Shown: piece after piece, positions 1,618-25,959 of the stretch | Layout of the letters: the number at the start of each line of letters is the position of its first letter | How positions within the stretch are numbered: the stretch's first letter is position 1 | Program-made: the position numbers and the translations under genes | Notes under the pieces: model-generated | What the model saw: the letters and a program-made list of their open reading frames with translations, nothing else | Told to the model about the DNA's origin: nothing | The model's database searches: none | Assembly (NCBI GenBank): GCA_963626345.1 | Contig: CAVFXI010000037.1 | Location: forward strand, 1,616 to 65,615 | Source of the DNA: Gemmiger formicilis | Lineage (GTDB): Bacteria; Bacillota_I; Bacilli_A; RFN20; CAG-826 | Reading direction: 5' to 3' | DNA: 64,000 nucleotides

Positions 1618-1996
1618 GGGGATGTCTTGGTTTCGACATATGTTTGCAGGGCATGAAGTGCAAGTCGCTTGGAAACGTTATATTCCAAAAACAAAATTAA
1701 TTGCCGATAATCGACAAACACTCGCATTCGCTGCTTAGTTCAGCCGACATAGTTTCGTCCTTCAATTAATAGGAGGTGCGCGGATCTTATCTTGTTAGCT
1801 TCTTAAAGATAATGTATCCGTCATAAAAGAAGATAGGCATAGATGATGATTATAAGTCTATGAAGAAAATTTCTATAATCTAAGTGAGTGAATGTTTGTG
1901 TTATTTAGTTCCTCACAATAACAAAATAACACTAAACTTGTAGAGTTTATGTGTGGCAGCATATGGACCGGAGTTCAATTCTCCGCATCTCCACCA
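1618..1996 (+). ncRNA. ssrA: tmRNA (transfer-messenger RNA)
   Basis: The 5' GGGGAUG pairs with the 3' CAUCUCC followed by ACCA, with a G3:U pair (alanine identity). The T-arm-like GGAGTTCAATTCTCC sits just before the 3' end. An internal tag reading frame GCC GAT AAT CGA CAA ACA CTC GCA TTC GCT GCT TAG (1703-1738) encodes ADNRQTLAFAA*, which has a canonical hydrophobic xAFAA end. Confidence 0.93.
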
Positions 1997-5290: not shown

Positions 5291-6646
5291 CTAGAAATCA
5301 TATTTAATTTTCCCCAATGCAAATGTTAAATAATGAGGAATAGTGATTATGTCTCCTTCTTCACTTACATTATAATCGCCAATTTTAATTAATTTAGTTT
5401 TCCCATAATGTTCTGGGTGCTTCATTACAGTTTTACTGGATTTAGTATTACCTGTTTTTGTTTTTGCTTCAACTAATGTAGCGAATCCTTTATATGATAT
5501 TACAAAATCTATTTCTAATCCGCTCTTTTTTGCAAAGTAATATGTCTCTATACCAGCTTTATTTAGTGAATCAAATACCAAAGCTTCATAAATTGCATCT
5601 TTTATTTGACCAAGATTTCCTTCGTTTATAGCGATTAAGGTTTCTATACCTTGCATCGATGTTAAAATCCCAATATCTTCAGGGAATAACTTGAATTGAG
5701 AAATGATTTTTTCACACGCTAAAGGAAGCGATGGGATGTTTAAATTATAAACTTTAGAAACAATATGAGATTGTATTAGGCATTCAATTGCAGCATTTTT
5801 ATCATATTGGGTGCCACCTTTAATTTTTGAAACAACGAATCTTTTACTTTTTTTGTTTAAAAAAGATGGTATTAAATCATAAGCATTTTGAATTCTTGCA
5901 AGTTCGGCAGGTCGAAAAATTATATTTCCATTTCTATCTTTTCGCTTACCAAAATCACCTTTTATATCTGACAAAATGTTTTTAGTTTCATTGAAAGCAT
6001 CGATTATTTTATTTGTTTTAAGATATTGCGTTATTGCTTTTGGGAATCCGCCAATGCAGGCATATTTTAAAAATAATAATTTATAAGTATTATGAATATT
6101 TTCTGAAATAGGTCTTCTATTATTAAAACATTCTAATAAGTAATCAATTTGCTTTTCTTGATATCCATTTGCCCACAAAAATTCTTCAAAATCCATTGTT
6201 TTCATTTGAATAATTTCTTCTGCACCAACAGGAATTGGTGTTACATCTCCAATAATATAATCATAAATATCCAAACATGATCCGCTTGCTATAACATTAT
6301 ATCTTCCATCTTCTTTAAAAAATTTTAATGATAATCTAGCTCTTGGACATTCTTGAATTTCATCAAAAAATATCAAAGTTTTTTCTTTATTAAAAGTTTT
6401 TGAAGAGAATCTTAAAGAAATATTCGATATCAAAGTGTCGATATTTAAAGTACGCTCAAAATCGTTTGAATATTTAGGGTTTTTCCTAAAGTTTATGTTT
6501 ATTAATTCCAAATTATTTCTTCTTGCGAATTCTTTGATAGATTCAGTTTTGCCACATTGGCGGATTCCCACAATTAAAATCGGTGTTTTTGCACCGTTCT
6601 TTAACCAACGATCAAGTTCACTATCTATCTTTCTTTTGAAATACAT
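5291..6646 (-). CDS. AAA+ ATPase (AAA_14) with C-terminal DUF4143 / PD-(D/E)xK nuclease-like domain (COG1373 type)
   Basis: Walker A is GIRQCGKT and Walker B is LIFFDEIQECP. The C-terminal LEIDFVI...ATLVEAKTK fits a D...ExK nuclease-fold signature. Confidence 0.8.
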   Translation of the reverse strand: MYFKRKIDSELDRWLKNGAKTPILIVGIRQCGKTESIKEFARRNNLELININFRKNPKYSNDFERTLNIDTLISNISLRFSSKTFNKEKTLIFFDEIQECPRARLSLKFFKEDGRYNVIASGSCLDIYDYIIGDVTPIPVGAEEIIQMKTMDFEEFLWANGYQEKQIDYLLECFNNRRPISENIHNTYKLLFLKYACIGGFPKAITQYLKTNKIIDAFNETKNILSDIKGDFGKRKDRNGNIIFRPAELARIQNAYDLIPSFLNKKSKRFVVSKIKGGTQYDKNAAIECLIQSHIVSKVYNLNIPSLPLACEKIISQFKLFPEDIGILTSMQGIETLIAINEGNLGQIKDAIYEALVFDSLNKAGIETYYFAKKSGLEIDFVISYKGFATLVEAKTKTGNTKSSKTVMKHPEHYGKTKLIKIGDYNVSEEGDIITIPHYLTFALGKIKYDF

Positions 6647-9754: not shown

Positions 9755-9851
9755 ATCTCTATTTTTTGATTTTTAATTCTTTATTTGATATTTATTTTTA
9801 AACATACTTCTTTTTTAATTTATAATATTATTCATAGGGAAGGTTTTTATT

Positions 9852-12800
9852 ATGGAAGAATTAAAAATCAATATTACAGCTAATGTTTCAAGTTCAATAT
9901 CATATGTTACTAGACAATGCGAAATTTATCTTGCTAACAAATATCATAATTTCAATGAAACAAATTCATTTTCGTTTGTGAGAAATATTAGGATTTTAAA
10001 TAGTACTGAAAACGATATTTTTGATGCAACTTTGAAAATTGAATTTAATACTCCTGAAATTAAAGATTCTTCTATAAATATTTCTTGTTTAGATAAAAAT
10101 AAAATTATTGAAATAACTAGTAATTTAAGTTTTGAAGTCGATCCTGCAAAATTATATGAGTTAAATGAAGTTAAACTAATTAATTTAACACTTAATTTAT
10201 TTGATAAAGATAACAATTTAATTGCTTCTAAGGTTTATCCTTTAAAATTAATGCCTTTAAATCAAATTTCAAGCGGTGTAAAAGGTGAATATTTTGTTCC
10301 TGAAATGCTTACTTGTTTTGTAACACCAAATGATGATTATGTTAATGAAGTTGCAAGAAAAGCAGCAAAAATTTTACAAGATGAATTTGAAGGTTCATTT
10401 ATGGGTTACCAAGTAAATGATCCTAACTATGTCATTCATGAACTTGATTCAATTTATAAAGCTATACGTAATGAAGGTATAGCTTACTCAATGCCTCCTG
10501 CAAGTTTTGAAAAGATATTTCAAAGAGTAAGATTACCTCAAGAAGTTTTAAAATTAAAACAAGGCACATGTTTAGATACTGTTATTCTTTTTGCTAGTGT
10601 TATTGAAAATGTTGGTTTGCATCCTATTATCTTTTTATTTAATAAACATGCATTTGTTGGGTGTTGGCTTGAAGAAAACCTTCAATCTGGAACTAGAGAA
10701 GATAATAGTGCAATTTTTAGCGAAGCAAGTGAAAAGGGTATTGGAAAATTAGCATTAATTGAAACTACACTTATTTGTAGCGGTCAGAATGCATCATTTA
10801 ATGATGCAATGGATGTTGCAAGGCACACATTACTCAACTCTATTTTTGAATATGCAATTGATGTTAGATCTTGCAGAAACACTGATATTTATAAGCCAAT
10901 TCCAACCGCAAAAATTGATGGAATTACAGAAATACATTTTGATGTTGTTGACATTTTAAATGAAAAACCAGTTGAGGTAGATACAAGTTTAAGAGATAAA
11001 TATATTAGAAAAGATAAGGAAAAAGATAAATTTGATTTATGGGAAAGAAAACTTTTAGATCTTAGTCTTTCTAATAAACTTATTAATTGCAAATCAAGAA
11101 AGAATTCATTAAATGTTTTAGTGGATAACTCACAAAATTTATTAGTATCTCTTGCTCAAAAAGATAAATTTAATTTAGTTGGGTTTTCAGCAAAAGAGAA
11201 GGGAATTGATACGGATATTTTAAATTATAAAGATAAAAACTATATCGGAAGTGCCCTCAATAATGGAAAACTCATTCTTGAAACTGAAGCAACCAAATTT
11301 GATGATGAAGTTAAAAAACTCGCAAGAAGAAGTAATTCTGCATTTGAAGAAAGCGGAAGTAATATTTTATTTTTAGCAGTTGGTTTAATTGAATGGTATC
11401 CAAATGAAAGTTCTATTTATCCAAATTATGCGCCATTACTTTTAATTCCTGCTCAATTAAGTCAAAGAAAAGTTGGGAGATTTTTTACTGCAGATTTTTT
11501 CCTTGATGAAGCAAGATTAAATATTACCTTTTTAGAATATGCAAAACAAAATTTTAATTTAAATATTGATTTAAATGGCAGAGATCTTTCTTTAGATTCA
11601 AATGGAATTATAGGATACGATGAAATTTGTAATACATTAACTAGAGAATTAAACATTAAAAATTGGAAGATTATTAAAGATAAAGCATTTATTGATACCT
11701 TTTCATTTTCACACTTTGTTATGTGGGAAGATATTTATAATAGAAAAGACTTATTGTTAAAAAACCCTGTCATTTCTTCGCTCTATTATGGTAATAATGA
11801 AAAATTAGTTAATAAAAACGAAGAAGAAATAAATATTGATAAAGATATTAAACCAAAAGATTTAGCGACACCTTTAAGTGCTGATTCAAGTCAAATTGAA
11901 GCCATTTTAAGCTGTGCTAAAGGGGATTCGTTTGTTCTTTTTGGTCCTCCTGGAACTGGCAAATCTCAAACAATCGCTAATATGATTGTTAATTTAATGT
12001 ATCAAGGAAAATCGGTTTTGTTTGTTGCTGAAAAAATGGTTGCCCTTGAAGTTGTTAAACACAGATTAGATGAAATTGGTTTAGGGAACTTTTGTGTGCA
12101 AATTCATTCTAATAAAATTTCAAAAACTGAAGTTTTAAATCAAATTGATAATTCTTTGCAAATGCAAAACATTGAAGAACCAAAAGAAGCCGAAATCAAT
12201 GCTCAAAAATTATTAGATTCAAGAAACGAACTTAATGAACGACTTGAAAAAATGCATTCAAATAAGAAATATTTTGCATCTCTTTATGATTCGATTTTGC
12301 TATACGAAGATTTAAAACAAAAAGGTTGCGAAAAAACTATTCAAATTGACACTGAATATATAAATACTTTGTCAAAAGATATATTTAATGATAGTGTTTC
12401 TAAATTAAAAAATTTAGAAATTGCAGCTAATGAAGCTGGTGGATATAAAGACAATCCATTTAATTTTTACAAAGGAATTGCATACAATTTATCCATTAGA
12501 AATGAAGTCGAAAATAAGATTAAAGCATTATCTCCAAAGATTGAAGAAATTATTAAATTTGATAATTCATTCGCAAAACAATATGGTTTTAGACAAATTA
12601 AAGATGTTAAAGATCTTTTAGATTTTGATAATTTACTTAAGCTTCTTTTAAATAAAGATTCGTTAAATTTTGCATCTTTAATTGATTATGATTATGAAGA
12701 AAAAGAACAAGCATCTTTGGTTTATTTAGACTCTAAGATTCAAGAATTAGGGTACAAAGAAAAAATTACTAGAAGATTTAGTAAGAATATTTTTGATGTT

Positions 12801-15641
12801 GATGAAGAATCTCTATTAGATGGTTTAGAAAGCGTTCAAAAATCTAATTTTATCAAAAGATTTATATATAAAAACAAAATTGTTAAACAACTTTCTGTAT
12901 ATTCTTTAGCTCCAGAACAAAAAATAAAAAGAAAAGAATTAGATGATATCTTAGATAACATTAGAAAATATAAAGAATTTAAAGAAATTAACAACAAAGT
13001 AGATAAATCAGTTTTTTATCATTTTGATAAATTCAAGAATGAAACATCAGATGATTATTTAGAAACTAAAAAGATGTTTATTAATACCAATGAATTTTAT
13101 AAAGAGCTTAAGAAAACGAGTTTTTATAAAGAAGAGGATATTAAGTCATTTGATAAATTATATGAAAACAAGGAAAAACTTTTCTCTACCGAAATTACTA
13201 AATATATCGAATTTAATGAAAATTTCTATAACGAATTAAAAGTATTAAATAATGAAGACAATATTGATTTTATATCTTTAAATATTTCGTTTGATGAAAT
13301 GGTTTTAAAAATCAAAAAGGCTGTAAAGAATATTGGCAAATTTAATCTTTGGATTTTATTGAATAACGCTTTAAATGAAGCAAACAATTTGAATTTAAGC
13401 TTTATTACTAATGAATTCAAATTAGGAAATTTAGAAATTGATCGAATTGCTTTAACATATCAATTTTCAATATATTCAAAGTTAATATCTTTATATTTTG
13501 ATATTTATGATTTTAACGAATTCACAAAACCAACAGTTGAAAAGAACATTCAAGAATATGAAAAATTAATTGAAGAATATTCTCGATTAACAATTGAAAA
13601 TGTTGCTGCAAAAATAACTCAAAACTCGCCAATAATTGATTCGGAATATGTTAAATCTAGCGAGCCAGCTATGATAAGAAAACTCATAAAGAGCAATGGT
13701 AGAGGGACGAGTTTAAGACAAATAATGAATAATCTTGGAGACTTTATTAAAAAGATTTGTCCATGTTTCCTCATGTCTCCATTATCAATTGCTCAATATA
13801 TCGACCCAGAAAAGATGCATTTTGATGTAGTTATTTTTGATGAAGCTTCTCAAATTCCAACAAGTGAAGCGGTAGGGGCAATTGCTAGAGGCGATTCAGT
13901 AGTTATTGCTGGTGATTATAATCAAATGCCACCAACAAGTTTCTTTAAAACTCAAATTGATAATGATGTTTCCTTTTTTGAAAACGAGACTGATTTAGAT
14001 AGTTTGCTTGATGATTGCATAAGTGTTGGTTTACCTCAAAGAAATCTATTATGGCATTATCGAAGTCATCACGAATCTTTAATTGCATTCTCAAATAACA
14101 AATTCTATAAAAACAACTTATATACGTTCCCATCACCATCAAATTTAATTAGTAATGTTAAATTTATTAATGTACATGGTACTTATGAAAGGAATAAAGG
14201 TATTAATAAAGAAGAAGCAAATGCAATTGTTAAAGAAATAATTAGAAGATTAAAGGATCCTGTTCTTTCAAAAAAGAGTATTGGTGTTGTAACCTTCAAT
14301 CAAAAACAACAAAATTTAATTCAAGATATGCTTGAAGCAGAATATGATAAAAATCCTGATTTAAATTTATATCCTGGAAATGAGTCAATATTTGTTAAAA
14401 ATCTTGAAAATGTTCAAGGCGATGAAAGAGATGTAATTTTATTCTCAATTTGTTTTGCTAAAAGAAAAGATGGTGAGTTAAGTTTGAACTTCGGACCTTT
14501 ATCATTAGAAAAAGGCGAAAGAAGATTAAATGTTGCGGTTTCTAGATCAAGAGATGAAATGATTATTTATTCATCAATTGAACCAATGGATATTAATCCA
14601 AATAATGCAAAAAATGATGGCGCTGGATATTTAAGGGATCTTTTAGAATATGCAAAATATGGCGTTAAAACATTAACAAGAAATGTAAACAATAAAGATA
14701 AACAATTTGATCCAAGTGTTGCTGAATTCATTAAAAACGATTTAGAAGATTTGGGATACAAGTGCGATTTAAATATTGGTTCCAGTAATTTCCGTGTTGA
14801 TATTGCAATTAAAAACGAAAAAGAAGATGCCTATTGTTTGGGCGTAATTTGTGATTCTTCTTTCTACTATGATGCAAAAACTTGCAGGGATAGAAATATT
14901 CTACATTACAACATTCTTTCTAAATTAGGTTGGAATATTGTTAGAGTTTGGACATTAGATTACTATGATCATCCAAAAGAAGTTATTAATCAAATTGTCG
15001 AAAAACTTAATGAAGTTAAAGATGGCAAGGCTATTAATGATGAAAAGAAACCAAAAAAGGCATTAAAAGAAACAATTACTTTTAAAAAGAAAGCAGAAAA
15101 TTCATGGATGAAAAATAACATGCCATATGTGAAATATAGCGGAGCTATAGCATACTTTGAAAATGATAGAGAAGTAATTTTAGCTTTAAAAGGTCTTATT
15201 AATAAAGAAGCACCAGTAACCTATACTTATGTAAAAAATTCGATTAGGAAAATGGCTGGTTTATCAAAAATCGGTCCAAAAATGAATAATAATTTAATTA
15301 ATTTATTAACTCAAATTGGTTATTATCATACGATGTCTCCTGATACTTATTGGAAAGATAGAGAACAATATTTGTCTTATGTAAATTATAGAGAGTGTAA
15401 GAATTTTGAGATTACTGAAATTCCATATGAAGAGTTAGGTAATTTATTTGTTGATGTTGTTAGTGATCTTAGAAAAGTTCAAAAGAATGATTTATTTAAA
15501 TTCGTTAGTGTTTTCTATGGATATAAAACAATGACACAAAAAACAATAAACTATTTAGAAGAGGCAACTCATTATTTAACGATTAAAAATTATAGAGGCT
15601 TATCACAAAGTGGTGATTTAATAACTATAAAAAATAAATAA
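9852..15641 (+). CDS. Giant multidomain helicase-nuclease: N-terminal transglutaminase-like module / DUF4011 / SF1 (Upf1/DNA2-like AAA_11+AAA_12) helicase / Vsr-like (MTES_1575) endonuclease fold / DUF3320; Hhe-like
   Basis: GTCLD...KHAFVGCW lies around aa 240-270. DLWERKLLDLSLSNKLIN (DUF4011-like) is at ~aa 394. Walker A GPPGTGKS is at aa 698-705 and VIFDEASQ at aa ~1327-1334. Further helicase motifs are GDYNQMPPTSFF, LLWHYRSHHESLIAFSNNKFY, VQGDERDVILFS and RRLNVAVSRSRDEM. FRVDIAIKN...LGVICDSSFYY...GWNIVRVWTLDYY lies at ~aa 1634-1710. The gene has its own -10/RBS upstream and a terminator downstream. Confidence 0.8.
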   Translation: MEELKINITANVSSSISYVTRQCEIYLANKYHNFNETNSFSFVRNIRILNSTENDIFDATLKIEFNTPEIKDSSINISCLDKNKIIEITSNLSFEVDPAKLYELNEVKLINLTLNLFDKDNNLIASKVYPLKLMPLNQISSGVKGEYFVPEMLTCFVTPNDDYVNEVARKAAKILQDEFEGSFMGYQVNDPNYVIHELDSIYKAIRNEGIAYSMPPASFEKIFQRVRLPQEVLKLKQGTCLDTVILFASVIENVGLHPIIFLFNKHAFVGCWLEENLQSGTREDNSAIFSEASEKGIGKLALIETTLICSGQNASFNDAMDVARHTLLNSIFEYAIDVRSCRNTDIYKPIPTAKIDGITEIHFDVVDILNEKPVEVDTSLRDKYIRKDKEKDKFDLWERKLLDLSLSNKLINCKSRKNSLNVLVDNSQNLLVSLAQKDKFNLVGFSAKEKGIDTDILNYKDKNYIGSALNNGKLILETEATKFDDEVKKLARRSNSAFEESGSNILFLAVGLIEWYPNESSIYPNYAPLLLIPAQLSQRKVGRFFTADFFLDEARLNITFLEYAKQNFNLNIDLNGRDLSLDSNGIIGYDEICNTLTRELNIKNWKIIKDKAFIDTFSFSHFVMWEDIYNRKDLLLKNPVISSLYYGNNEKLVNKNEEEINIDKDIKPKDLATPLSADSSQIEAILSCAKGDSFVLFGPPGTGKSQTIANMIVNLMYQGKSVLFVAEKMVALEVVKHRLDEIGLGNFCVQIHSNKISKTEVLNQIDNSLQMQNIEEPKEAEINAQKLLDSRNELNERLEKMHSNKKYFASLYDSILLYEDLKQKGCEKTIQIDTEYINTLSKDIFNDSVSKLKNLEIAANEAGGYKDNPFNFYKGIAYNLSIRNEVENKIKALSPKIEEIIKFDNSFAKQYGFRQIKDVKDLLDFDNLLKLLLNKDSLNFASLIDYDYEEKEQASLVYLDSKIQELGYKEKITRRFSKNIFDVDEESLLDGLESVQKSNFIKRFIYKNKIVKQLSVYSLAPEQKIKRKELDDILDNIRKYKEFKEINNKVDKSVFYHFDKFKNETSDDYLETKKMFINTNEFYKELKKTSFYKEEDIKSFDKLYENKEKLFSTEITKYIEFNENFYNELKVLNNEDNIDFISLNISFDEMVLKIKKAVKNIGKFNLWILLNNALNEANNLNLSFITNEFKLGNLEIDRIALTYQFSIYSKLISLYFDIYDFNEFTKPTVEKNIQEYEKLIEEYSRLTIENVAAKITQNSPIIDSEYVKSSEPAMIRKLIKSNGRGTSLRQIMNNLGDFIKKICPCFLMSPLSIAQYIDPEKMHFDVVIFDEASQIPTSEAVGAIARGDSVVIAGDYNQMPPTSFFKTQIDNDVSFFENETDLDSLLDDCISVGLPQRNLLWHYRSHHESLIAFSNNKFYKNNLYTFPSPSNLISNVKFINVHGTYERNKGINKEEANAIVKEIIRRLKDPVLSKKSIGVVTFNQKQQNLIQDMLEAEYDKNPDLNLYPGNESIFVKNLENVQGDERDVILFSICFAKRKDGELSLNFGPLSLEKGERRLNVAVSRSRDEMIIYSSIEPMDINPNNAKNDGAGYLRDLLEYAKYGVKTLTRNVNNKDKQFDPSVAEFIKNDLEDLGYKCDLNIGSSNFRVDIAIKNEKEDAYCLGVICDSSFYYDAKTCRDRNILHYNILSKLGWNIVRVWTLDYYDHPKEVINQIVEKLNEVKDGKAINDEKKPKKALKETITFKKKAENSWMKNNMPYVKYSGAIAYFENDREVILALKGLINKEAPVTYTYVKNSIRKMAGLSKIGPKMNNNLINLLTQIGYYHTMSPDTYWKDREQYLSYVNYRECKNFEITEIPYEELGNLFVDVVSDLRKVQKNDLFKFVSVFYGYKTMTQKTINYLEEATHYLTIKNYRGLSQSGDLITIKNK

Positions 15642-15670: not shown

Positions 15671-15715
15671 AAGGTTCATTCAAAAAAATAGCAAATCAAG
15701 AATGAACCTTTTTAT
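15671..15715 (+). terminator. Rho-independent terminator after the helicase gene
   Basis: AAGGTTCATTC ... GAATGAACCTT stem (long A-rich loop) followed by TTTT. Confidence 0.55.
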
Positions 15716-15970
15716 CTTGCTTTTTTTCACGAGTGATTTTGTATCGATTAGGCTATTTTTATTAGAATTTTTAATTTACCTAGTTATTAATACTAGATAA
15801 TCGTGTAATTTATATTATAATAAGTTGTCTTTAAATTATTTTGAAAGATTTATCTTAAGGAAAAGTGCTTGTTTGTGGGTCGTGATGTAGAGGAAAGTTG
15901 ATAATAGATGCGAAATAAGATAAATGCTTGGTATAGATATTAAAAAAGTAAGTTAAGGAGGTTGTATTTG

Positions 15971-17001: not shown

Positions 17002-17027
17002 AGCCATCCTCTAAAGGATGGCTTTTT
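17002..17027. terminator. Bidirectional hairpin terminator between convergent degV and the ABC ATPase gene
   Basis: A 9-bp stem AGCCATCCT/AGGATGGCT with a 4-nt loop and T-runs on both strands. The loop contains the stop codon of the minus-strand gene. A weaker hairpin CGCTAT/ATAGCG+TTTT lies at 16967-16987. Confidence 0.7.
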
Positions 17028-18645
17028 CTGTTTCTTTATCAAAGAAGTGTATTTTATTTAGATTGAAGCAAACTTTAATTTTGTCGCCAGCATTAATTGG
17101 CTTGGATGTTTCAAGTTTAATAATAAGGTCTTTTCCTGCAAAATCAGTATGAATATAATATTCACTTCCAAGTAATTCAGCTATTTTAACTTCAAGTTCA
17201 ACGATTGACTCTGGGAATTGTTTTGCATGTTCTCCTTCACCTGGGTGAATATCTTCTGGACGAATACCAAATATCACAGTTTCAGGTATGTTTTTGCCTT
17301 TTGTAATTTCTTTAGGAATTTTAATTGTAGTGCCCCCTTCAAATCTAACTTCATTATTTTTGTATTCGACATTGAAGAAATTCATTGCTGGTGATCCTAT
17401 AAATCCTGCTACGAATAAATTTGCTGGATGTTGATATATCTCTTTTGGGGCCCCTATTTGTTGGATATGCCCAGCTTTCATAATGACAATTCTACTTGCC
17501 ATAGTCATAGCTTCGGTTTGATCATGAGTAACATAAATTGTAGTTGCACTTAATTGGTTATGAAGTCTAACAATTTCACTTCTCATTTGGACACGAAGTT
17601 TTGCATCAAGATTTGATAATGGTTCGTCCATTAAGAATACTTTTGCATTTCGAACAATAGCACGACCTAAAGCAACTCTTTGACGTTGGCCGCCTGATAA
17701 TGCTTTTGGTTTTCTATCAAGGTATTGTTCGATTTGGAGAATTCTTGCGGCTTCATGCACTCTACGATTAATTTCACTTTTTGGAATATGCTTATAAACA
17801 GTAACAGGAACCTTAGTTTCTTGGGCATATTTAAGTTGAGCTCTAATTTTGTCTAATTCTTCAGCATCTTTGCCTTCGTTTTCTGATTTGAGTAAGAGTT
17901 TTTCAAGTTCAGCAATCTTTTTCTTATCATAATCATAAACGTATTCAGCTGATTTTCTTGCTGCTGATAATTTTTCGCTTAAAGTTTCGATTTTTGAATG
18001 ATAACCATTTAATTCCTCTCTAGTTGATTCATAGTCTACGAGTTTTGGTTCAAGTTTATCAATTTTCTTTTTAAATTTTGCAGCCTTTTTAGGATCTTTA
18101 ATGGTTTCATAATCTCTAAGAGCATTATCACGTTCAGTTTTAATTCTAGTTAAGTCATCAAATTTGTTGTTTACCTTACTAAAACCTTTATAAAGTTCGT
18201 TAAGTTCATTTTCGATTACGCCAATTTTTTCAGCACTTTCTGGTGTTAAAACTTTTTGATGCACTTTATTTATTTTTAATGAAAAAGCCATGTTGTCAAA
18301 TACTGACATATGTGGATAGAGTGCATAACTTTGGAAGACCATTGCGATATTTCTATCTTTTGGCGATACATCATTAACATATTCGCCATCAATAAATAAG
18401 TTTCCAGCAGTAATGTTCTCTAAACCTGCAACCATTCTTAAAGTGGTGGATTTGCCACAACCAGATGGTCCAACAAAAACGATAAATTCATGTTTTTTGA
18501 TATCTAAATTGAAATCAAAAACCGCTTGAACTCCATTATCATATACTTTGTCAATATGTTGTAATGAAACATATGCATCTTTAGGGCAAGTTAATATTCT
18601 TACACCTTCTTTAGCTTCAACATTGTTAATTTTCTTTTCTTCCAT
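17011..18645 (-). CDS. Sugar ABC-importer ATPase (MsmK/MalK/UgpC type) carrying a ~160-aa coiled-coil insertion
   Basis: Walker A GPSGCGKST, signature LSGGQRQRVALGRA, Walker B FLMDEPLSNLD, and a C-terminal TOBE-like region. A Lys/Glu-rich block of aa ~128-287 interrupts the helical subdomain, where canonical MalK has only ~10 aa. Confidence 0.85.
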   Translation of the reverse strand: MEEKKINNVEAKEGVRILTCPKDAYVSLQHIDKVYDNGVQAVFDFNLDIKKHEFIVFVGPSGCGKSTTLRMVAGLENITAGNLFIDGEYVNDVSPKDRNIAMVFQSYALYPHMSVFDNMAFSLKINKVHQKVLTPESAEKIGVIENELNELYKGFSKVNNKFDDLTRIKTERDNALRDYETIKDPKKAAKFKKKIDKLEPKLVDYESTREELNGYHSKIETLSEKLSAARKSAEYVYDYDKKKIAELEKLLLKSENEGKDAEELDKIRAQLKYAQETKVPVTVYKHIPKSEINRRVHEAARILQIEQYLDRKPKALSGGQRQRVALGRAIVRNAKVFLMDEPLSNLDAKLRVQMRSEIVRLHNQLSATTIYVTHDQTEAMTMASRIVIMKAGHIQQIGAPKEIYQHPANLFVAGFIGSPAMNFFNVEYKNNEVRFEGGTTIKIPKEITKGKNIPETVIFGIRPEDIHPGEGEHAKQFPESIVELEVKIAELLGSEYYIHTDFAGKDLIIKLETSKPINAGDKIKVCFNLNKIHFFDKETEKAIL

Positions 18646-18658
18646 ATTAGGTTACCTC

Positions 18659-21082
18659 CTAGATAGACAACACAACTTCATAGACTTTTTTATCTTTATT
18701 GAATGGAATGATATTTCCTTCAATTAGATGACCATCAACATATAATCCTTTTTCTTTTGAACCATCATTTAAAATAAGAATGTTATATTTTGCTTCTCTA
18801 AAGATTCTAGTAACTTGAACTTGTTTGAATTCTTTAGAAAGACATGGTTCAATTTTTAATCCGTCGATTTCTGGTTTTATGCCAAGCAAACCTTGAGAGA
18901 GAACCACAAATGACCAACTGGCTGTTCCTGTTAACCAAGAATTTTTTGCTGATCCATAATGTGGGCTATCTCTACCAGCAATCGTTTGAGAATAAACATA
19001 AGGTTCGGTCTGATGAATTTCACTTATGCTTTCAATATATGCTGGTGAATTTTTCTTATATAAAGCGAATGCTTTTTCTGGTTCATTTTCAACGCAATAA
19101 GCCAATGTTATCCATGGATTATTGTGGCAGAAGACACTACCATTTTCTTTATGTCCTGGTGGATAACTTGAAATTTCACCTAGTTCTAAATGATATTTTT
19201 TATAAGTTGGATATAAAACTTCAATTCCATAATCATTTTCAAGATATTTTTCTACGCTCTTTAAAGCAAGTTTTCCATAACCTAATTCATGACCTACCAT
19301 AGCATATGTACAGAAACCATTTGATTCTATAAATATCTTGCCATCTTCGCATTCTTTACTTCCTATTTTTTGTGAGAAAGCATCGTAAGCACGAATGAAC
19401 CATTCGCCATCCCATCCATCTTTTAAGATAGCATCATTGATAATTCCAAGATATTTTTCCGTCTTTTTAACATCGCTTTCTTTTCCATAGTGTTTTGCAA
19501 TTTCGATAAATTCTTTTGCATATTTTATAAACATTCCGGCAATGAAAACGGATTCTGCTTTATGTGATTCTTTATTGCTTGTTGTTTGGAATGATTCTCC
19601 TGGAACTGAACTAAAGCAATTCAAATTTAGACAATCGTTCCAGTCGGCCCTTCCAATCAAAGGAAGATTATGTGGACCTAGATTGTTTTCGGTAAATTCA
19701 ATGCTTCTTACAAGATGTTCGTAAAGTGGTTTTTCGCTTCCTTCAACATTATTAAATGGAGTTGGAACATCTAAAATTGAAAAATCACCTGTTTCTTTAA
19801 TGTATGCGCTAGTTGCTGCAATAAGCCATAATGGATCATCATTGAAACCACAACCAACATCAGCATTTCCCCTTTTTGTTAATGGTTGATATTGGTGATA
19901 TGTTGATCCATCTTCAAATTGAATTGAAGCAATATCAATAATTCTCTGTTTAGCTTTTTCTGGAATCAAATGAACAAAACCCAATAAATCTTGACAGGAA
20001 TCTCTAAAGCCCATTCCTCTACCAGTTCCGCTTTCAAAATATGAGGCGCTTCTTGACATACAATAAGTCATCATACATTGATATTGGTTCCAAATATTTG
20101 CCATTCTATTGAATTTATCATCTTCAGATTTGACAGAAAAAATACTTAATAAATTTTCCCAATATTTCGCTAAATCATTAAACGCTTTATCAACTTTTTC
20201 TTCAGAATTATATTTATTCATTAATTCATATGCTTTTTCTTTATTAATAACATTTGGAGCAATGAATTTTTCTTCATCTTTGTTTTCAACATAACCCAGA
20301 ATAAAAATTATAGTTTTAGTTTCGTTTGGCTGAAGTTTAATTGAAAAATGATGGCATCCAATTGGTTCATTTCCATAACAGATTTCGTTTTTTGTTTTAT
20401 TATCTTCTATAACTTCTGGACTATCCCATCCATTAAGTGAACCTAAAAATGATTCTCTTTCAGTATCAAATCCATTGTGTTTTTGGTTTGCATAAAAGAA
20501 ACAATAGTGGTTTCTTCTTTCTCTATATTCGGTTTTATGATAAATAGTATTTTCATCTACCTCAACTTCAGCGATGTTTAAATTGCGTTGGAAGTTTGTT
20601 GAATCATCGATTGTGTTATATAAACAAAATTCAACTACTCCATAGAGGTCGATATTTCTTGTTTTATTGGAAACGTTTGTCAATTTAAGTTCATTAATTT
20701 CACAATTTGAACCTAATGGAACGAAACAAAGGAGATTACAGGAAATATCGTTCTTGGAGCTTAAGAATCTAGAGTAGTTAAGACCATGATGACATTCATA
20801 TGAGTCAAGCATGGTTTTTGTAGGAAGGAAACCAGGATTCCATACACACTCTTCATCTTTAATATAATAAAAACGTGCACCAGTATCGCGAGGAACGTTA
20901 TTATATCTAAATCTAGTTAACCTACGAAGTTTTGCATCCTTATAAAAAGAGTATCCTCCGCAAGTATTACTAATTAAACTGAAAAATTCTTCATTACCTA
21001 AATAATTGATCCATGGCAATGGTGTATTTGGGGTATTAATAACATATTCTTTTGCTTTATCATCAAAATATCCATATTTCAT
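18659..21082 (-). CDS. GH94 glycoside phosphorylase (cellobiose/chitobiose phosphorylase type, 807 aa)
   Basis: The N-terminus MKYGYFDDKAKEYVINTPNTPLPWINYLGNEEFFSLISNTCGGYSFYKDAKLRRLTRFRYNNVP and the catalytic-region RADWNDCLNL are hallmark GH94 blocks. Confidence 0.88.
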   Translation of the reverse strand: MKYGYFDDKAKEYVINTPNTPLPWINYLGNEEFFSLISNTCGGYSFYKDAKLRRLTRFRYNNVPRDTGARFYYIKDEECVWNPGFLPTKTMLDSYECHHGLNYSRFLSSKNDISCNLLCFVPLGSNCEINELKLTNVSNKTRNIDLYGVVEFCLYNTIDDSTNFQRNLNIAEVEVDENTIYHKTEYRERRNHYCFFYANQKHNGFDTERESFLGSLNGWDSPEVIEDNKTKNEICYGNEPIGCHHFSIKLQPNETKTIIFILGYVENKDEEKFIAPNVINKEKAYELMNKYNSEEKVDKAFNDLAKYWENLLSIFSVKSEDDKFNRMANIWNQYQCMMTYCMSRSASYFESGTGRGMGFRDSCQDLLGFVHLIPEKAKQRIIDIASIQFEDGSTYHQYQPLTKRGNADVGCGFNDDPLWLIAATSAYIKETGDFSILDVPTPFNNVEGSEKPLYEHLVRSIEFTENNLGPHNLPLIGRADWNDCLNLNCFSSVPGESFQTTSNKESHKAESVFIAGMFIKYAKEFIEIAKHYGKESDVKKTEKYLGIINDAILKDGWDGEWFIRAYDAFSQKIGSKECEDGKIFIESNGFCTYAMVGHELGYGKLALKSVEKYLENDYGIEVLYPTYKKYHLELGEISSYPPGHKENGSVFCHNNPWITLAYCVENEPEKAFALYKKNSPAYIESISEIHQTEPYVYSQTIAGRDSPHYGSAKNSWLTGTASWSFVVLSQGLLGIKPEIDGLKIEPCLSKEFKQVQVTRIFREAKYNILILNDGSKEKGLYVDGHLIEGNIIPFNKDKKVYEVVLSI

Positions 21083-21108
21083 AAAATTTTCAGCCCTTCT
21101 TCGAAATA

Positions 21109-21120
21109 GTAAGCGCTTAC
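21109..21120. promoter_or_regulatory. Perfect 12-bp palindrome GTAAGCGCTTAC (LacI/CcpA-type operator candidate)
   Basis: Located 27 nt upstream of the GH94 start codon. A near-copy GAAAGCGCTTAC lies in front of the LacI-family gene. Confidence 0.55.
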
Positions 21121-21298
21121 ATTACTTAAATATAATTACTTAAACGATTTCGTTAATATGCTTTTATTTTATTCATATATAGACTAAATTCAACAAAAAT
21201 AAAACGAAATAATTTCGAAAAATATTCGATAGAATCGACATATATTATATTAATATAATATATAAGGATTTTCGTAAAAAATTTAAATTTTTAATTTG

Positions 21299-21328
21299 TT
21301 GACATTCGAAAGAAGTAATATTTATAAT
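21299..21328 (+). promoter_or_regulatory. Near-consensus sigma-70 promoter of the LacI-family regulator gene
   Basis: TTGACA (21299-21304), an 18-nt spacer, then TATAAT (21323-21328). Confidence 0.65.
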
Positions 21329-21332
21329 AATA

Positions 21333-21358
21333 TCGAAATCGATTTCGAAAGCGCTTAC
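21333..21358. promoter_or_regulatory. Operator-like palindromes overlapping the regulator's leader
   Basis: A 16-bp perfect palindrome TCGAAATCGATTTCGA (21333-21348) abuts GAAAGCGCTTAC (21347-21358), immediately before the ATG at 21362. Confidence 0.5.
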
Positions 21359-21361
21359 ATT

Positions 21362-22372
21362 ATGATTAGAGTAAAAGATATCGCAAAAAAATGTGGAGTA
21401 TCAACAGCCACAGTTTCTAAAGCATTACACAATAGTAAGGAATTGAATCCTGATACTATTTCTTTAGTTTGTAAGACCGCTAAAGAAATGGGATACATTC
21501 CAAACGCTACTGCAAGATCTCTAAAATTAAGAAAAACTTATAGTATTGGTGTCTTGTTTGTTGATAAAACTGGAACCGGGTTAGAGCACGAATACTTTTC
21601 TTCTATTTTAGAAGCTATAAAGGCAGAGGCGGAAGCATTAGGATATGATATTACTTTTATTTCAGATAACTTAGGCAACGCAAGAACTTCATATTTAGAG
21701 CACGCGCGTTATAGAAGTATTGATGGTGTAGTTATAGCTTCAGCTGATTATGATAGCGATAAGGTTATTGAATTAGTTAATAGTGAGATTCCTACGGTAA
21801 CTATCGATTACATCTACAATAAATCAAGCGCGGTTATGTCAGATAACGTCGAAGGATTAGAAAGTATTGTTAAATATGCAGCAAGTAAAGGTCATAAAAA
21901 AATTGCATTTATACATGGCGAAATTACTGATGTTACAAATAAACGTATTGCAGGTTTCCATAAAGCAATGAGCGAATTAAATTTGGTAGTCGATAAAGAA
22001 TATATTAGAGAAGGAATTTACCATGATCCTAAATCTAGTGGTAGAGAAACCAAAAAATTATTAAGTCTTGATGAAAGACCAACATGCATCATTTATCCTG
22101 ATGATATTTCATTAATTGGTGGAATGACCGCAATTCAACAAGCTGGTCTTAAGGTTCCAGAAGATATAAGCGTAGTTGGATATGATGGAACTAATATTTC
22201 AAGGATATTAAGACCAATTCTTACTTCATACATTCAAAATAGTGTGGAACTTGGTAAATGTGCAGTTAAAAATTTAATCGAAAGAATTGAAAACCCTAAA
22301 GTTTTTGTCCCTACAATAATTCATATTAAAGGAACATTACAAGAGGGGCAAACAGTCGTTGATGTTAAATAA
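21362..22372 (+). CDS. LacI-family transcriptional regulator
   Basis: MIRVKDIAKKCGVSTATVSKALHNS (HTH_LacI) followed by a periplasmic-binding-fold domain. The ATG at 21362 is preferred over the upstream TTG at 21296, which lies inside the promoter. Confidence 0.88.
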   Translation: MIRVKDIAKKCGVSTATVSKALHNSKELNPDTISLVCKTAKEMGYIPNATARSLKLRKTYSIGVLFVDKTGTGLEHEYFSSILEAIKAEAEALGYDITFISDNLGNARTSYLEHARYRSIDGVVIASADYDSDKVIELVNSEIPTVTIDYIYNKSSAVMSDNVEGLESIVKYAASKGHKKIAFIHGEITDVTNKRIAGFHKAMSELNLVVDKEYIREGIYHDPKSSGRETKKLLSLDERPTCIIYPDDISLIGGMTAIQQAGLKVPEDISVVGYDGTNISRILRPILTSYIQNSVELGKCAVKNLIERIENPKVFVPTIIHIKGTLQEGQTVVDVK

Positions 22373-22432
22373 AGGTTATAAATGCGTCGAGCATTATAAT
22401 AGATAACTTGATTTTCGGAGGTAAACAAAAAT

Positions 22433-23851: not shown

Positions 23852-23935
23852 TAAGTTTAAAAAAAATAGTTATTTTTCCTAGGGCAAAAAAAGCCCTAGG
23901 AAAATGTTTTTATAAAAATAATGAAAGGAGATTTT

Positions 23936-25889: not shown

Positions 25890-25959
25890 AAATTAATTAA
25901 TAATCATTCTAATTATCAATTTAGTTAGAATGATTTTTTTATTCGAAAAGGAGTGGTTT

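What the first reader, a model, noticed from the sequence alone, without database searches (positions are those of the whole stretch)
9852..15641. Stand-alone 1,929-aa helicase-nuclease (DUF4011 / SF1 helicase / Vsr-like REase / DUF3320): Hhe-like defence candidate with non-canonical additions
One ORF fills 5.8 kb. It has its own AT-rich promoter region and a terminator, and no translationally coupled partner.

The sequence shows these elements:
- a DUF4011-like block (DLWERKLLDLSLSNKLIN);
- a complete Upf1/DNA2-like SF1 motif set: GPPGTGKS, VIFDEASQ, GDYNQMPP, HYRSHHESLIAFSNNKFY, QGDERDVILFS and RRLNVAVSRSR;
- a Vsr/DUF559-like endonuclease fold (FRVDIAI...VICDSSFYY...GWNIVRVWTLDYY);
- a DUF3320-like tail.

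This domain chain is the one reported for the single-gene anti-phage system Hhe (HheA: DUF4011-helicase-Vsr endonuclease). Its mechanism is still essentially uncharacterised.

The gene lies about 8 kb from ssrA, beyond a run of decayed accessory genes, and its neighbours are metabolically unrelated. That context is consistent with an accessory or defence role.
Basis: partly seen in the sequence, partly recalled or inferred. Interest (0 to 1): 0.75.

Follow-up and report, generated by a model that had tools for sequence, protein, structure and literature searches.

The report
ProA-family anti-phage helicase, not Hhe
The 5.8-kb gene is real and encodes a giant helicase that a curated model labels an anti-phage protein, ProA; it is a relative of the defence protein Hhe, not Hhe itself, its nuclease-like domain lacks the residue Hhe needs for defence, and all six relatives recovered carry it at the same position.

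Summary
**Observation.** The ORF 9852-15641 (+), 1,929 aa, is real. It carries DUF4011, a complete Upf1-like SF1 helicase motif set and a Vsr-like (MTES_1575) fold.

**Family.** It is not Hhe.
- It scores 654 bits on NCBIfam's Hhe model, where the cutoff is 2000.
- It narrowly passes the equivalog model 'anti-phage protein ProA' (1543 against a cutoff of 1500).
- Its best PADLOC match is the candidate PDC-S37.

**The "additions" belong to the family.**
- The N-terminal 390 aa form a beta-sandwich plus a transglutaminase-like domain. Its Cys240 and His266 are invariant and Asp/Glu284 is nearly so.
- The tail is a tandem winged-helix region, homologous to DUF3320-bearing tails of relatives.

**Difference from Hhe.** Hhe has the nuclease motif E-C-D-G…H, and its glutamate is required for defence. 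This protein has I-C-D-S…Y, and so do nearly all of its close relatives.

**Context.** The gene is not obviously accessory here.
- All six related loci recovered carry it directly upstream of DegV (one is cut by a contig end, one has a possible frameshift).
- Its identity to those relatives tracks that of DegV.
- dN/dS is about 0.05.

Elsewhere, family members lie beside retron, AbiE and AbiU-like genes and on plasmids.

**Verdict.** New member of a known kind; moderate interest.

The parts
9797..9826 (+). Promoter-like site: TTTAAA, 18-nt spacer, TATAAT
   Evidence: This is a consensus match only. Such sites are not enriched over shuffles in this AT-rich region.
9837..9843 (+). Shine-Dalgarno-like GGGAAGG, 8 nt before the ATG
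   Evidence: Read directly from the sequence.
9852..15641 (+). Complete CDS, 1,929 aa, of a ProA-family (PDC-S37-type) helicase
   Evidence: dN/dS against the L003 orthologue is 0.048.
9864..10271 (+). N-terminal beta-sandwich (Ig-like) domain, residues ~5-140
   Evidence: AF2 model with mean pLDDT 80.8. Foldseek matches RhoGDI and Ig-like folds and the transglutaminase N-domains.
10299..10886 (+). Transglutaminase-like (papain-fold) domain, residues ~150-345, with predicted triad C240-H266-D284
   Evidence: Foldseek matches PNGase, factor XIII, TG2 and TG3 with probability up to 1.0. C240 and H266 are 45/45 and D/E284 is 43/45. Pfam DUF553 scores 18.9 bits, below the 20.5 cutoff, in this protein and 21.2 in P0006.
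11049..11537 (+). DUF4011 region, residues 400-562
   Evidence: Pfam PF13195, E = 7.3e-29.
11883..12311 (+). SF1 helicase RecA1, first part, residues 678-820, with Walker A GPPGTGKS (K704) at 11943-11966
   Evidence: Pfam AAA_11 and AAA_19. PDB sequence matches to Upf1 and IGHMBP2, E = 5e-9. Motif coordinates.
12312..13811 (+). Insertion of about 500 aa within the helicase core, residues 821-1320; the lowest GC (0.235) and the fastest-evolving segment
   Evidence: No Pfam hit. dN/dS is 0.06-0.39, the highest of the domains. GC.
13812..14651 (+). Rest of the helicase core, residues 1321-1600: motif II VIFDEASQ, III, IV, V and VI
   Evidence: Pfam AAA_12, E = 3.4e-21. Motifs located. Nearly invariant across 45 homologues.
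14730..15008 (+). Vsr-like (MTES_1575) endonuclease-fold domain, residues 1627-1719. It keeps D1650, D1668, D1680 and R1681 but lacks the Glu and His of Hhe's E-x-D-G…H motif (I1666, Y1673).
   Evidence: Pfam PF18741, E = 7.6e-21. Foldseek matches 3hrl and 3r3p with probability 1.0 and 0.99, TM 0.62-0.71. Column counts; alignment to Hhe.
15069..15638 (+). C-terminal tail, residues ~1740-1929: helical, tandem winged-helix-like, homologous to DUF3320-bearing tails
   Evidence: AF2 pLDDT is above 90 over residues 1750-1925. Foldseek gives weak winged-helix matches (cullin WHB, ESCRT-II, BlaI, kleisin). P1788, R1847 and E1861 are invariant. PF11784 maps to the aligned segment in P0093 but does not hit here.
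15671..15729 (+). Intrinsic-terminator-like hairpin: 11-bp stem, 18-nt loop, followed by a U-rich run
   Evidence: dG -14 kcal/mol, z = -3.03, 0 of 200 shuffles fold as well.

Best explanation
**What it is.** This is a single-gene, constitutively resident member of the ProA / PDC-S37 family of DUF4011 helicases, sister to Hhe. It most likely acts against phage or other invading nucleic acid.

**Proposed working.**
- The Upf1-like SF1B motor (K704 Walker A, DEAS 1330-1333, motifs III-VI intact) uses ATP to load on and translocate along foreign DNA or replication intermediates. The DUF4011 region and the 500-aa insertion act as family-specific gating modules.
- The C-terminal Vsr-fold domain and the tandem winged-helix tail bind DNA. 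In this branch the Vsr fold has lost the Glu and His of the E-x-D-G…H motif, so it probably recognises or holds DNA rather than cutting it by the canonical mechanism.
- The invariant Cys-His-Asp transglutaminase-like domain at the N-terminus is the likeliest second catalytic element. It could be a thiol peptidase, transglutaminase or deamidase, acting as an effector or as an activation switch.

**Shown here:** gene integrity, domain composition, family assignment, residue conservation, purifying selection and synteny.

**Inferred:** every enzymatic activity, the substrate, the trigger and the anti-phage phenotype of this particular protein.
For: **Family assignment**
- NCBIfam NF058533 'anti-phage protein ProA', an equivalog model: 1543.4 bits against a cutoff of 1500, collinear over 37-1892.
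- PADLOC PDC-S37: 1021.7 bits over 391-1909.
- More than 1,860 homologues, length-conserved at about 1,920-1,960 aa and covering 96-100% of the query.

**Domains intact**
- All SF1 motifs are present and nearly invariant.
- The nearest solved relatives are Upf1 and IGHMBP2.

**Transglutaminase-like domain**
- AF2 mean pLDDT is 80.8, and Foldseek matches PNGase, factor XIII and TG2.
- C240 and H266 are present in 45 of 45 sequences and D/E284 in 43 of 45. The 26/18-residue spacing resembles what I recall for PNGase (C191-H218-D235), which was not checked here.
- The domain matches 3,836 representative clusters at E <= 0.001. Of the 150 best hits, roughly two-thirds are proteins of at least 1,500 aa, and the shorter ones may be fragments.

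**Selection**
- dN/dS is 0.048 overall and 0.01-0.14 in every domain against the closest orthologue.

**Defence-type neighbourhoods of family members elsewhere**
- AbiEii, an integrase and a retron-type RT in Dysgonomonas.
- A retron-type RT in Bacteroides.
- An AbiU-like/AIPR gene in L011.
- Toxin-antitoxin (TA)-rich Acinetobacter plasmids and a conjugative P. aeruginosa plasmid.

**Local context**
- A PADLOC candidate, PDC-S01, lies 3.2 kb upstream in the window.
Against: **Synteny in relatives**
- The gene sits in the same place, directly upstream of DegV, in every relative recovered. These span 70-97.5% identity, and four of them were found through DegV alone. Defence genes usually show presence/absence variation.
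- Its GC3 equals that of AdhE and DegV.
- No integrase or att repeat bounds the region.

**Family membership is marginal**
- The ProA score is only 43 bits above the cutoff.
- I could not find the publication behind the ProA name in 10 literature searches, so I do not know what was shown for the exemplar.

**Nuclease motif**
- The Glu required for Hhe defence is absent, so the mechanism cannot simply be copied from Hhe.
- The best-scoring ProA member seen, from P. aeruginosa at 2372 bits, does have E-C-D-G…H. This protein may therefore differ functionally from the exemplar.

**No experiment.** There is no experimental test of any kind for this protein.
Confidence: 0.6

Rival explanations
1. 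It is an Hhe system: a DUF4011-helicase-Vsr nuclease that degrades phage DNA with its Vsr-like active site.
For: - It shares DUF4011, the SF1 core and the MTES_1575 fold.
- It is 32-35% identical to Klebsiella/E. coli Hhe over residues 493-796 and 1142-1769.
- PADLOC Hhe scores 469 bits and NCBIfam Hhe 654 bits.
Against: - It fails the curated Hhe cutoff by a wide margin (654 against 2000), while true Hhe scores 2730.
- Another model fits better over the full length.
- Hhe has no N-terminal transglutaminase-like module and no DUF3320-type tail.
- The Glu of E-C-D-G, equivalent to E1731 whose mutation abolishes Hhe defence, is Ile here. The His is Tyr.
Confidence: 0.04
2. In this lineage the protein is a housekeeping genome- or RNA-maintenance helicase, for example resolving replication-transcription conflicts, processing aberrant nucleic acids or controlling resident mobile DNA. 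Under this reading the 'anti-phage' family label does not describe its main role here.
For: - The gene is present and syntenic in all six relatives recovered. These span AdhE identities of 93-99.7% and DegV identities of 64-99.7%.
- Its identity to relatives tracks DegV.
- Purifying selection is strong in every domain.
- Codon composition is fully host-like, and there are no mobility genes or att sites.
- There is a precedent: a large DUF4011 gene is a core gene in every P. aeruginosa isolate and serves as the flank of defence hotspot cDHS1 (PMC10250203).
- The closest solved relatives, Upf1 and IGHMBP2, are quality-control helicases.
Against: - The family is patchy across phyla, occurs on plasmids and lies next to retron, Abi and toxin-antitoxin genes.
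- Two independent defence resources model it.
- The sample of relatives is small, six loci from one narrow clade of MAGs.
- One relative, L005, may carry a frameshift.
- Stable vertical inheritance of a defence gene is possible in small genomes.
Confidence: 0.22
3. It is a decaying or non-functional remnant of a defence gene: a long ORF kept by chance, with a dead nuclease.
For: - The Glu and His of the nuclease motif are lost.
- The ProA score is borderline.
- There is a possible frameshifted copy in L005.
Against: - A 5.8-kb ORF with no stop codon in 26% GC DNA is not a chance event.
- dN/dS is 0.048 against L003 and 0.12 against L001, and 0.02 in the nuclease-like domain itself.
- All family-invariant residues are retained.
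- Loss of the Glu and His is shared by nearly all close family members (179 of 182 motif-matched proteins), so it is an old, stable state.
Confidence: 0.02

Closest known systems
ProA (NCBIfam NF058533, 'anti-phage protein ProA'), which corresponds in part to the PADLOC candidate PDC-S37
   Same: - The protein is collinear with the model over its full length (37-1892 against 6-1902 of 1903) and scores above the curated cutoff.
- The domain order is the same: beta-sandwich, transglutaminase-like domain, DUF4011, SF1 helicase with a long insertion, Vsr-like fold, winged-helix tail.
- The length class is the same, about 1,930 aa.
   Different: - The score is only just above the cutoff, 1543 against 1500. 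Bacteroides, Dysgonomonas and P. aeruginosa members score about 2,200-2,400.
- The highest-scoring member seen, P. aeruginosa WP_003086141.1, has V-E-C-D-G-A-T-Y-H. This protein has V-I-C-D-S-S-F-Y-Y.
- The PDC-S37 model starts only at DUF4011 and does not include the N-terminal module.
- I could not read the primary ProA paper, so the tested phenotype of the exemplar is unknown to me.
Hhe (HheA; Gao et al. 2020; NCBIfam NF042953, PADLOC Hhe)
   Same: - Both are single-gene proteins with DUF4011, a Upf1-like SF1 helicase carrying a long insertion, and a C-terminal MTES_1575/Vsr-like fold.
- They are 32-35% identical over about 960 residues.
   Different: - Hhe has no transglutaminase-like N-terminus; its DUF4011 starts at residue 30.
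- Hhe has no DUF3320-type tail.
- Hhe keeps E-C-D-G…H and also hits DUF559.
- Its Glu is needed for defence.
- Hhe is patchy: 302 of 5,426 E. coli genomes carry it, and it occurs on Klebsiella plasmids beside DUF262 genes.
Upf1 / IGHMBP2 / DNA2-type SF1B helicases
   Same: - The Walker A region and flanking sequence align to Upf1 and IGHMBP2 structures, E = 5e-9.
- The TIGR00376 IGHMBP2-family model hits at 2.7e-27.
   Different: - The score is far below those models' cutoffs.
- This protein has a 500-aa insertion and four extra domains that they lack.
Vsr / DUF559 / EDxHD-type endonuclease fold (for example NGO0050, PDB 3hrl, and I-Bth0305I, PDB 3r3p)
   Same: - The fold matches with probability 0.99-1.0 and TM 0.62-0.71 on the target.
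- The first Asp (D1650) and the R-D-R segment are invariant.
   Different: - The Glu and His positions of the E-x-D-G-x-x-x-H motif are hydrophobic or Tyr.
- From my own knowledge, the equivalent His is catalytic in Vsr itself. I did not test this here.
Transglutaminase-fold enzymes (PNGase, factor XIII/TG2, bacterial transglutaminase-like cysteine peptidases)
   Same: - A beta-sandwich followed by a Cys-His-Asp core.
- The Cys sits at the start of a helix (H240-253) and the His on the next strand pair.
- Foldseek probability reaches 1.0.
   Different: - Sequence identity is only 8-14% and TM-scores are low (0.2-0.3) because of the two-domain query.
- The Pfam hit is below the cutoff in this protein.
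- No substrate is known.

Membership tests
Hhe (NCBIfam NF042953 / PADLOC Hhe) | Whole-protein score above the curated equivalog cutoff (2000 bits) | tested here: not met
   The score is 653.6 bits and only residues 1008-1750 align. The control Klebsiella Hhe scores 2730.2.
Hhe (NCBIfam NF042953 / PADLOC Hhe) | DUF4011 at the extreme N-terminus with no preceding domain | tested here: not met
   In Hhe, DUF4011 spans residues 30-308. Here it spans 400-562, after a 390-aa two-domain module.
Hhe (NCBIfam NF042953 / PADLOC Hhe) | Vsr-like nuclease motif E-C-D-G…H, with the Glu (E1731) required for defence | tested here: not met
   I1666 and Y1673 align to the Hhe Glu and His, which are E1727 (= E1731 from the upstream start) and H1734 in the annotated protein. 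The E1731A phenotype is reported in 10.1101/2022.06.16.496414.
Hhe (NCBIfam NF042953 / PADLOC Hhe) | Complete SF1 helicase motif set | tested here: met
ProA (NCBIfam NF058533) | Whole-protein score above the curated equivalog cutoff (1500 bits), with end-to-end alignment | tested here: met
   The score is 1543.4 bits, with residues 37-1892 matching model positions 6-1902 of 1903. The pass is marginal.
ProA (NCBIfam NF058533) | N-terminal transglutaminase-like module with conserved Cys and His | tested here: met
   C240 and H266 are invariant in 45 homologues. The module is present in the P. aeruginosa, Acinetobacter and Bacteroides members.
ProA (NCBIfam NF058533) | Nuclease motif as in the best-scoring member seen (P. 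aeruginosa: V-E-C-D-G-A-T-Y-H) | tested here: not met
   The window protein has V-I-C-D-S-S-F-Y-Y. Of 182 motif-matched relatives, 179 also lack the Glu. Whether this motif defines ProA is unknown, because the source paper was not found.
ProA (NCBIfam NF058533) | DUF3320-type C-terminal tail | tested here: inconclusive
   PF11784 gives no hit here. The tail aligns with DUF3320-positive homologues and shares invariant residues with them.
ProA (NCBIfam NF058533) | Protection against phage when expressed | not testable with these tools
   This needs an experiment. The publication behind the name was not found in 10 searches.
PADLOC PDC-S37 (candidate single-gene system) | Full-length match to the PDC-S37 model, as a stand-alone gene | tested here: met
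   The score is 1021.7 bits, with model positions 7-1533 of 1550 matching residues 391-1909. No coupled neighbour is present.
Defence-island resident (accessory gene) | Presence/absence variation among close relatives, or mobile-element boundaries | tested here: not met
   The gene is present at the same position in L001, L002, L003, L004, L005 and L018. No att repeat or integrase was found. The sample is small.
Transglutaminase-like / papain-fold enzymes | Cys-His-Asp triad on the transglutaminase core fold | tested here: met
   Fold. Triad conservation. The Pfam DUF553 score is below the cutoff here (18.9 against 20.5). Enzymatic activity was not tested.

The most novel reading that the evidence does not exclude
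In this large Firmicute/Bacteroidete branch of the ProA family, the Vsr-like domain has become a non-cutting DNA-recognition module. The invariant Cys-His-Asp transglutaminase-like domain is then the true effector. The protein would be a helicase-driven sensor coupled to a thiol peptidase, transglutaminase or deamidase output, which is a defence logic not described for Hhe-type proteins. It has also become a fixed, core-like immune gene in a small-genome gut lineage.
Probability: 0.25. Interest if true: 0.7.

Novelty: new member of a known kind. Interest (0 to 1): 0.35.

Why it matters
- **Correct naming.** The work puts the right name on a very large and abundant family of gut-microbiome proteins that are easily mis-filed as Hhe. 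There are more than 1,860 clusters at 90% identity, some with hundreds of member sequences.
- **A mechanistic split inside the DUF4011 helicases.** Hhe and the P. aeruginosa-type ProA keep the E-x-D-G…H nuclease motif. Most proteins that carry the transglutaminase-like N-terminus, including this one, have lost it but keep an invariant Cys-His-Asp triad. That points mutagenesis at C240 and H266 as well as K704, and away from a presumed 'nuclease core'.
- **An unusual pattern of inheritance.** The gene is stably and vertically inherited in its clade. For a defence gene this is uncommon, and it is relevant to how small-genome bacteria keep their immunity.

Tried and rejected
1. **Literature on ProA.** Ten full-text searches found no paper that names or characterises ProA or PDC-S37. 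Every 'ProA' hit I opened was an unrelated word (proactively, proaerolysin), and no listed title concerned this family. I therefore rely on the NCBIfam label alone.
2. **DUF3320 by HMM.** There is no hit even at E = 10 on the isolated tail.
3. **Solved structures.** None exists for the family. Only Upf1 and IGHMBP2 match, through the Walker A region.
4. **Pseudogenisation in a relative, as evidence of dispensability.** L005 has an N-run and one frameshift. L004 proved to be merely cut by a contig end. This is not conclusive.
5. **Island boundaries.** There is no direct repeat of the tmRNA 3' end and no integrase in 1600-30000.
6. **Structured RNAs near the gene.** Rfam finds only tmRNA in the whole window.
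7. **Phage carriage.** Only one unannotated faecal 'Bacteriophage sp.' contig carries a long homologue, so the gene is not a typical phage gene.
8. **The B. finegoldii 'plasmid' as evidence of mobility.** The record carries rpsA, glutamine synthetase and trxB and looks chromosomal.
9. **A simple 'effector swap' rule** (transglutaminase domain present means nuclease dead). I rejected it as absolute, because the P. aeruginosa protein has both.
10. **Organism identity.** The genome contigs titles disagree with each other. The only usable hint is 'Bacilli bacterium' for the 63%-identical P0006.
Full report
**1. The observation**

The window contains a single uninterrupted ORF from 9852 to 15641 on the + strand, 1,929 codons.

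Pfam confirms four domains:
- DUF4011 at residues 400-562, E = 7e-29;
- AAA_11 at 678-820;
- AAA_12 at 1384-1574;
- the MTES_1575 restriction-endonuclease-like fold at 1627-1719, E = 8e-21.

The signals around the gene are as follows.
- A GGGAAGG ribosome-binding site precedes the ATG by 8 nt.
- A promoter-like TTTAAA-18-TATAAT site lies at 9797-9826. Such sites are not enriched over shuffles in this AT-rich DNA.
- An 11-bp hairpin with a U-run follows the stop codon (dG -14 kcal/mol, z = -3.0).
- The gaps to the neighbouring genes are 97 bp and 320 bp, so no partner is translationally coupled.
- ssrA lies 7.9 kb upstream.

Two points in the description do not hold as written.
- DUF3320 does not hit this protein at any threshold.

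**2. Which family it belongs to**

Curated libraries separate this protein from Hhe.

| Model | Score (bits) | Cutoff | Region matched |
|---|---|---|---|
| NCBIfam Hhe (NF042953) | 653.6 | 2000 | residues 1008-1750 only |
| NCBIfam 'anti-phage protein ProA' (NF058533) | 1543.4 | 1500 | 37-1892 = model 6-1902 of 1903 |
| PADLOC PDC-S37 | 1021.7 | none | 391-1909 |
| PADLOC Hhe | 469.4 | none | partial |

As a control I took a PGAP-annotated Hhe from a Klebsiella plasmid. Over the 3' 1.26 kb used as query it is 99.8% identical in DNA to the E. coli gene, which 302 of 5,426 E. coli genomes carry. This control scores 2730 bits on the Hhe model and 1129 on ProA, below that model's cutoff. The two models therefore discriminate in both directions.

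A protein search found more than 1,860 clusters of homologues. Their length is strikingly constant at about 1,920-1,960 aa, and most listed hits cover 96-100% of the query, including the N-terminus. No member has a solved structure. The nearest solved proteins are Upf1 and IGHMBP2.

**3. The "non-canonical additions"**

*N-terminus.* An AlphaFold2 model of residues 1-420, built on 45 homologues, has a mean pLDDT of 80.8. It shows a beta-sandwich (about 5-140) followed by an alpha/beta domain (about 150-345).
- Foldseek matches the second domain to PNGase, factor XIII, TG2 and TG3, with probability up to 1.0. It matches the first to Ig-like sandwiches.
- In the alignment, C240 and H266 are present in 45 of 45 sequences. 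Position 284 is Asp or Glu in 43 of 45. Q224, R227, D242, E252 and D337 are also invariant.
- C240 sits at the start of a helix, as expected for a papain/transglutaminase-fold nucleophile.
- Pfam's transglutaminase-like DUF553 scores just below its cutoff here (18.9 against 20.5). It passes in the 63%-identical relative P0006.
- A search of 1.84 billion representative proteins with residues 1-390 found 3,836 clusters at E <= 0.001. Of the 150 best hits, roughly two-thirds are proteins of at least 1,500 aa, and the shorter ones may be fragments. The module therefore occurs mainly in this architecture.

*C-terminus.* The model of residues 1587-1929 has a mean pLDDT of 84.
- Its nuclease-like part matches the DUF559-type protein 3hrl and the Vsr-like homing endonuclease I-Bth0305I (probability 1.0 and 0.99, target TM 0.62-0.71).
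- The tail gives only weak matches, to winged-helix domains.
- In DUF3320-positive relatives, PF11784 maps to the first of these winged-helix units. The window protein aligns there and shares the invariant P1788, R1847 and E1861.

Both "additions" are thus standard features of the ProA family.

**4. The nuclease motif differs from Hhe**

- Hhe reads G-I-E-C-D-G-A-A-Y-H and also hits DUF559.
- Its Glu is residue 1727 in the annotated protein. An in-frame ATG four codons upstream makes it 1731. This matches the E1731A mutant reported to abolish Hhe defence (bioRxiv 10.1101/2022.06.16.496414).
- In the pairwise alignment, the window protein has I1666 at the Glu position and Y1673 at the His position.
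- None of the 45 aligned relatives has Glu there; the column reads I/L/S/M/V. D1650, D1680, R1681 and W1694 are invariant, and D1668 is present in 39 of 45.
- DUF4011 helicases without the transglutaminase module (Hhe, Ralstonia, Haloferax) keep E-C-D-G…H.
- The rule is not absolute. A 2,221-aa protein on a conjugative P. aeruginosa plasmid has both the Cys/His module and V-E-C-D-G-A-T-Y-H. It is also the highest ProA scorer I saw, at 2372 bits. An Acinetobacter plasmid member has the Cys/His module, lacks the Glu and His, and has no tail.

The window protein therefore belongs to a large branch of ProA in which the canonical nuclease residues are gone.

**5. Is the gene functional?**

Yes.
- Against the closest orthologue (L003, 97.5% amino-acid identity), dN/dS is 0.048 overall. 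It lies between 0.01 and 0.14 in every domain, including the transglutaminase-like domain (0.056), the nuclease-like domain (0.019) and the tail (0.036).
- Against L001 (80% identity) it is 0.12.

**6. Context and inheritance**

*The region between ssrA and the gene.* It holds:
- a likely remnant of a Schlafen/HATPase_c_4-type gene (2675-3523);
- a TMEM164-like membrane protein;
- an AAA_14/DUF4143 ATPase that matches PADLOC candidate PDC-S01 (8e-115);
- a hydrolase;
- a PNPOx-like protein;
- an ATC-hydrolase-like protein.

There is no integrase and no repeat of the tmRNA 3' end.

*Relatives.* They were retrieved in two ways: through the helicase (L001, L002) and, independently of it, through DegV (L003, L004, L005, L018).
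- All carry the helicase immediately upstream of DegV.
- Where the downstream flank was searched, Rex and AdhE follow (L001, L002, L003 and L018).
- The upstream side varies.

| Locus | Helicase identity (%) | DegV identity (%) |
|---|---|---|
| L003 | 97.5 | 99.7 |
| L004 | 93 | 93 |
| L005 | 86-90 | 91 |
| L001 | 80 | 79.5 |
| L018 | 71 | 64 |
| L002 | 70 | 65 |

- GC3 (0.151) equals that of AdhE and DegV.
- One copy, L005, has an N-run and a frameshift, which I cannot distinguish from assembly error.
- In this clade the gene therefore behaves like a stable, vertically inherited resident.

*Family members elsewhere.*
- In Dysgonomonas the homologue sits in an integrase/AbiEii island and abuts a convergent retron-type reverse transcriptase. 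A Bacteroides homologue abuts the same kind of RT.
- Another homologue neighbours an AbiU-like/AIPR gene.
- Others lie on toxin-antitoxin-rich Acinetobacter plasmids and on a conjugative P. aeruginosa plasmid.
- A large DUF4011 gene is also known as a core gene flanking a defence hotspot in P. aeruginosa (PMC10250203). Core-like behaviour is thus not unprecedented in this superfamily.

**7. Most likely mechanism**

I take the family-level defence assignment as the best-supported reading, with confidence 0.6.
- The Upf1-like motor supplies ATP-driven loading and translocation on foreign nucleic acid. This is inferred from family membership and intact motifs.
- The DUF4011 region and the 500-aa insertion are family-specific accessory modules shared with Hhe.
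- The Vsr fold and the winged-helix tail bind DNA. Because the Glu needed in Hhe and the aligned His are absent family-wide, while the domain is under very strong constraint, I infer that it recognises DNA rather than cutting it canonically. I put this step at about 0.65.
- The invariant Cys-His-Asp module is then the best candidate for a catalytic output or switch. I put this at about 0.4-0.5.

Nothing about activity, substrate, trigger or phenotype has been shown here.

The main rival is a housekeeping genome- or RNA-maintenance role in this lineage, at 0.22. It rests on the synteny and selection data.

**8. Novelty and score**

- The family is already modelled by NCBI and PADLOC, and this exact protein is already in public MAG data. 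The finding is therefore a new member of a known kind.
- What remains of interest is the loss of the nuclease residues alongside an invariant transglutaminase-type triad, and the core-like inheritance.
- Accessible literature gives no mechanism for Hhe and nothing at all on ProA.
- Interest: 0.35.

Noticed in passing
window 5291-6646 (-): A 451-aa AAA_14 + DUF4143 ATPase matches the PADLOC defence candidate PDC-S01 over its full length (8e-115). This is a second defence-candidate gene, 3.2 kb upstream of the helicase.
   Followed up: partly
window 2675-3523 (+): A TTG-start, 282-aa ORF lies just after tmRNA. It carries only the C-terminal HATPase_c_4 part of a Schlafen/AlbA_2-type protein and has weak similarity to pAgo-associated proteins. 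It is probably a gene remnant, and it is the only clearly decayed gene in the 'run of decayed accessory genes'.
   Followed up: partly
window 17011-28869: A block of about 12 kb for sugar uptake and glycoside hydrolysis (ABC ATPase, an 807-aa GH, a LacI-type regulator, a binding protein, two permeases, a 979-aa protein) is inserted between DegV and Rex. It is present in the window and, at least in part, in L004 and L005 (matching ORF lengths; the far end and Rex are not covered in either). It is absent from L001, L002, L003 and L018, where DegV is followed directly by Rex-AdhE.
   Followed up: partly
window 9852-15641 compared with L003 959-6745: Synonymous divergence is uneven along the gene: dS is 0.43-0.51 in the first 350 codons and 0.11-0.13 in the last 600. 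This suggests recombination within the gene between strains, affecting the N-terminal module.
   Followed up: no
L008 13822-14952 (-) and L009 13804-14970 (-): In Bacteroides finegoldii and Dysgonomonas termitidis, a retron-type reverse transcriptase (PADLOC RT_III-A, about 1e-104) lies convergent to the ProA homologue and within 2 bp of its stop codon. This could be a functional pairing or simply defence-island packing. There is no such gene in the window.
   Followed up: partly
L003, L004, L005 (genome contigs): Loci that are 91-99% identical at DegV, with about 28% GC, are titled Slackia isoflavoniconvertens, Parabacteroides goldsteinii and Acutalibacteraceae bacterium. These names cannot all be right, so the contigs are probably mis-binned MAG contigs. 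The source organism is an unnamed low-GC lineage; a 63%-identical relative is labelled 'Bacilli bacterium'.
   Followed up: no
L005 3958-9696: The helicase orthologue is interrupted by a run of N and by one frameshift near codon 1285. Whether this is an assembly artefact or a real pseudogene was not resolved.
   Followed up: partly
L008 (NZ_OY725931.1, 'plasmid 29' of B. finegoldii): The record is typed as a plasmid but carries rpsA, glutamine synthetase III and trxB. It looks like a chromosomal fragment and should not be counted as evidence that ProA is plasmid-borne.
   Followed up: no
window 1618-1996 (+): A tmRNA gene with tag peptide ADNRQTLAFAA (Rfam 134 bits). It is the only Rfam family detected in the whole 64-kb window.
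   Followed up: yes
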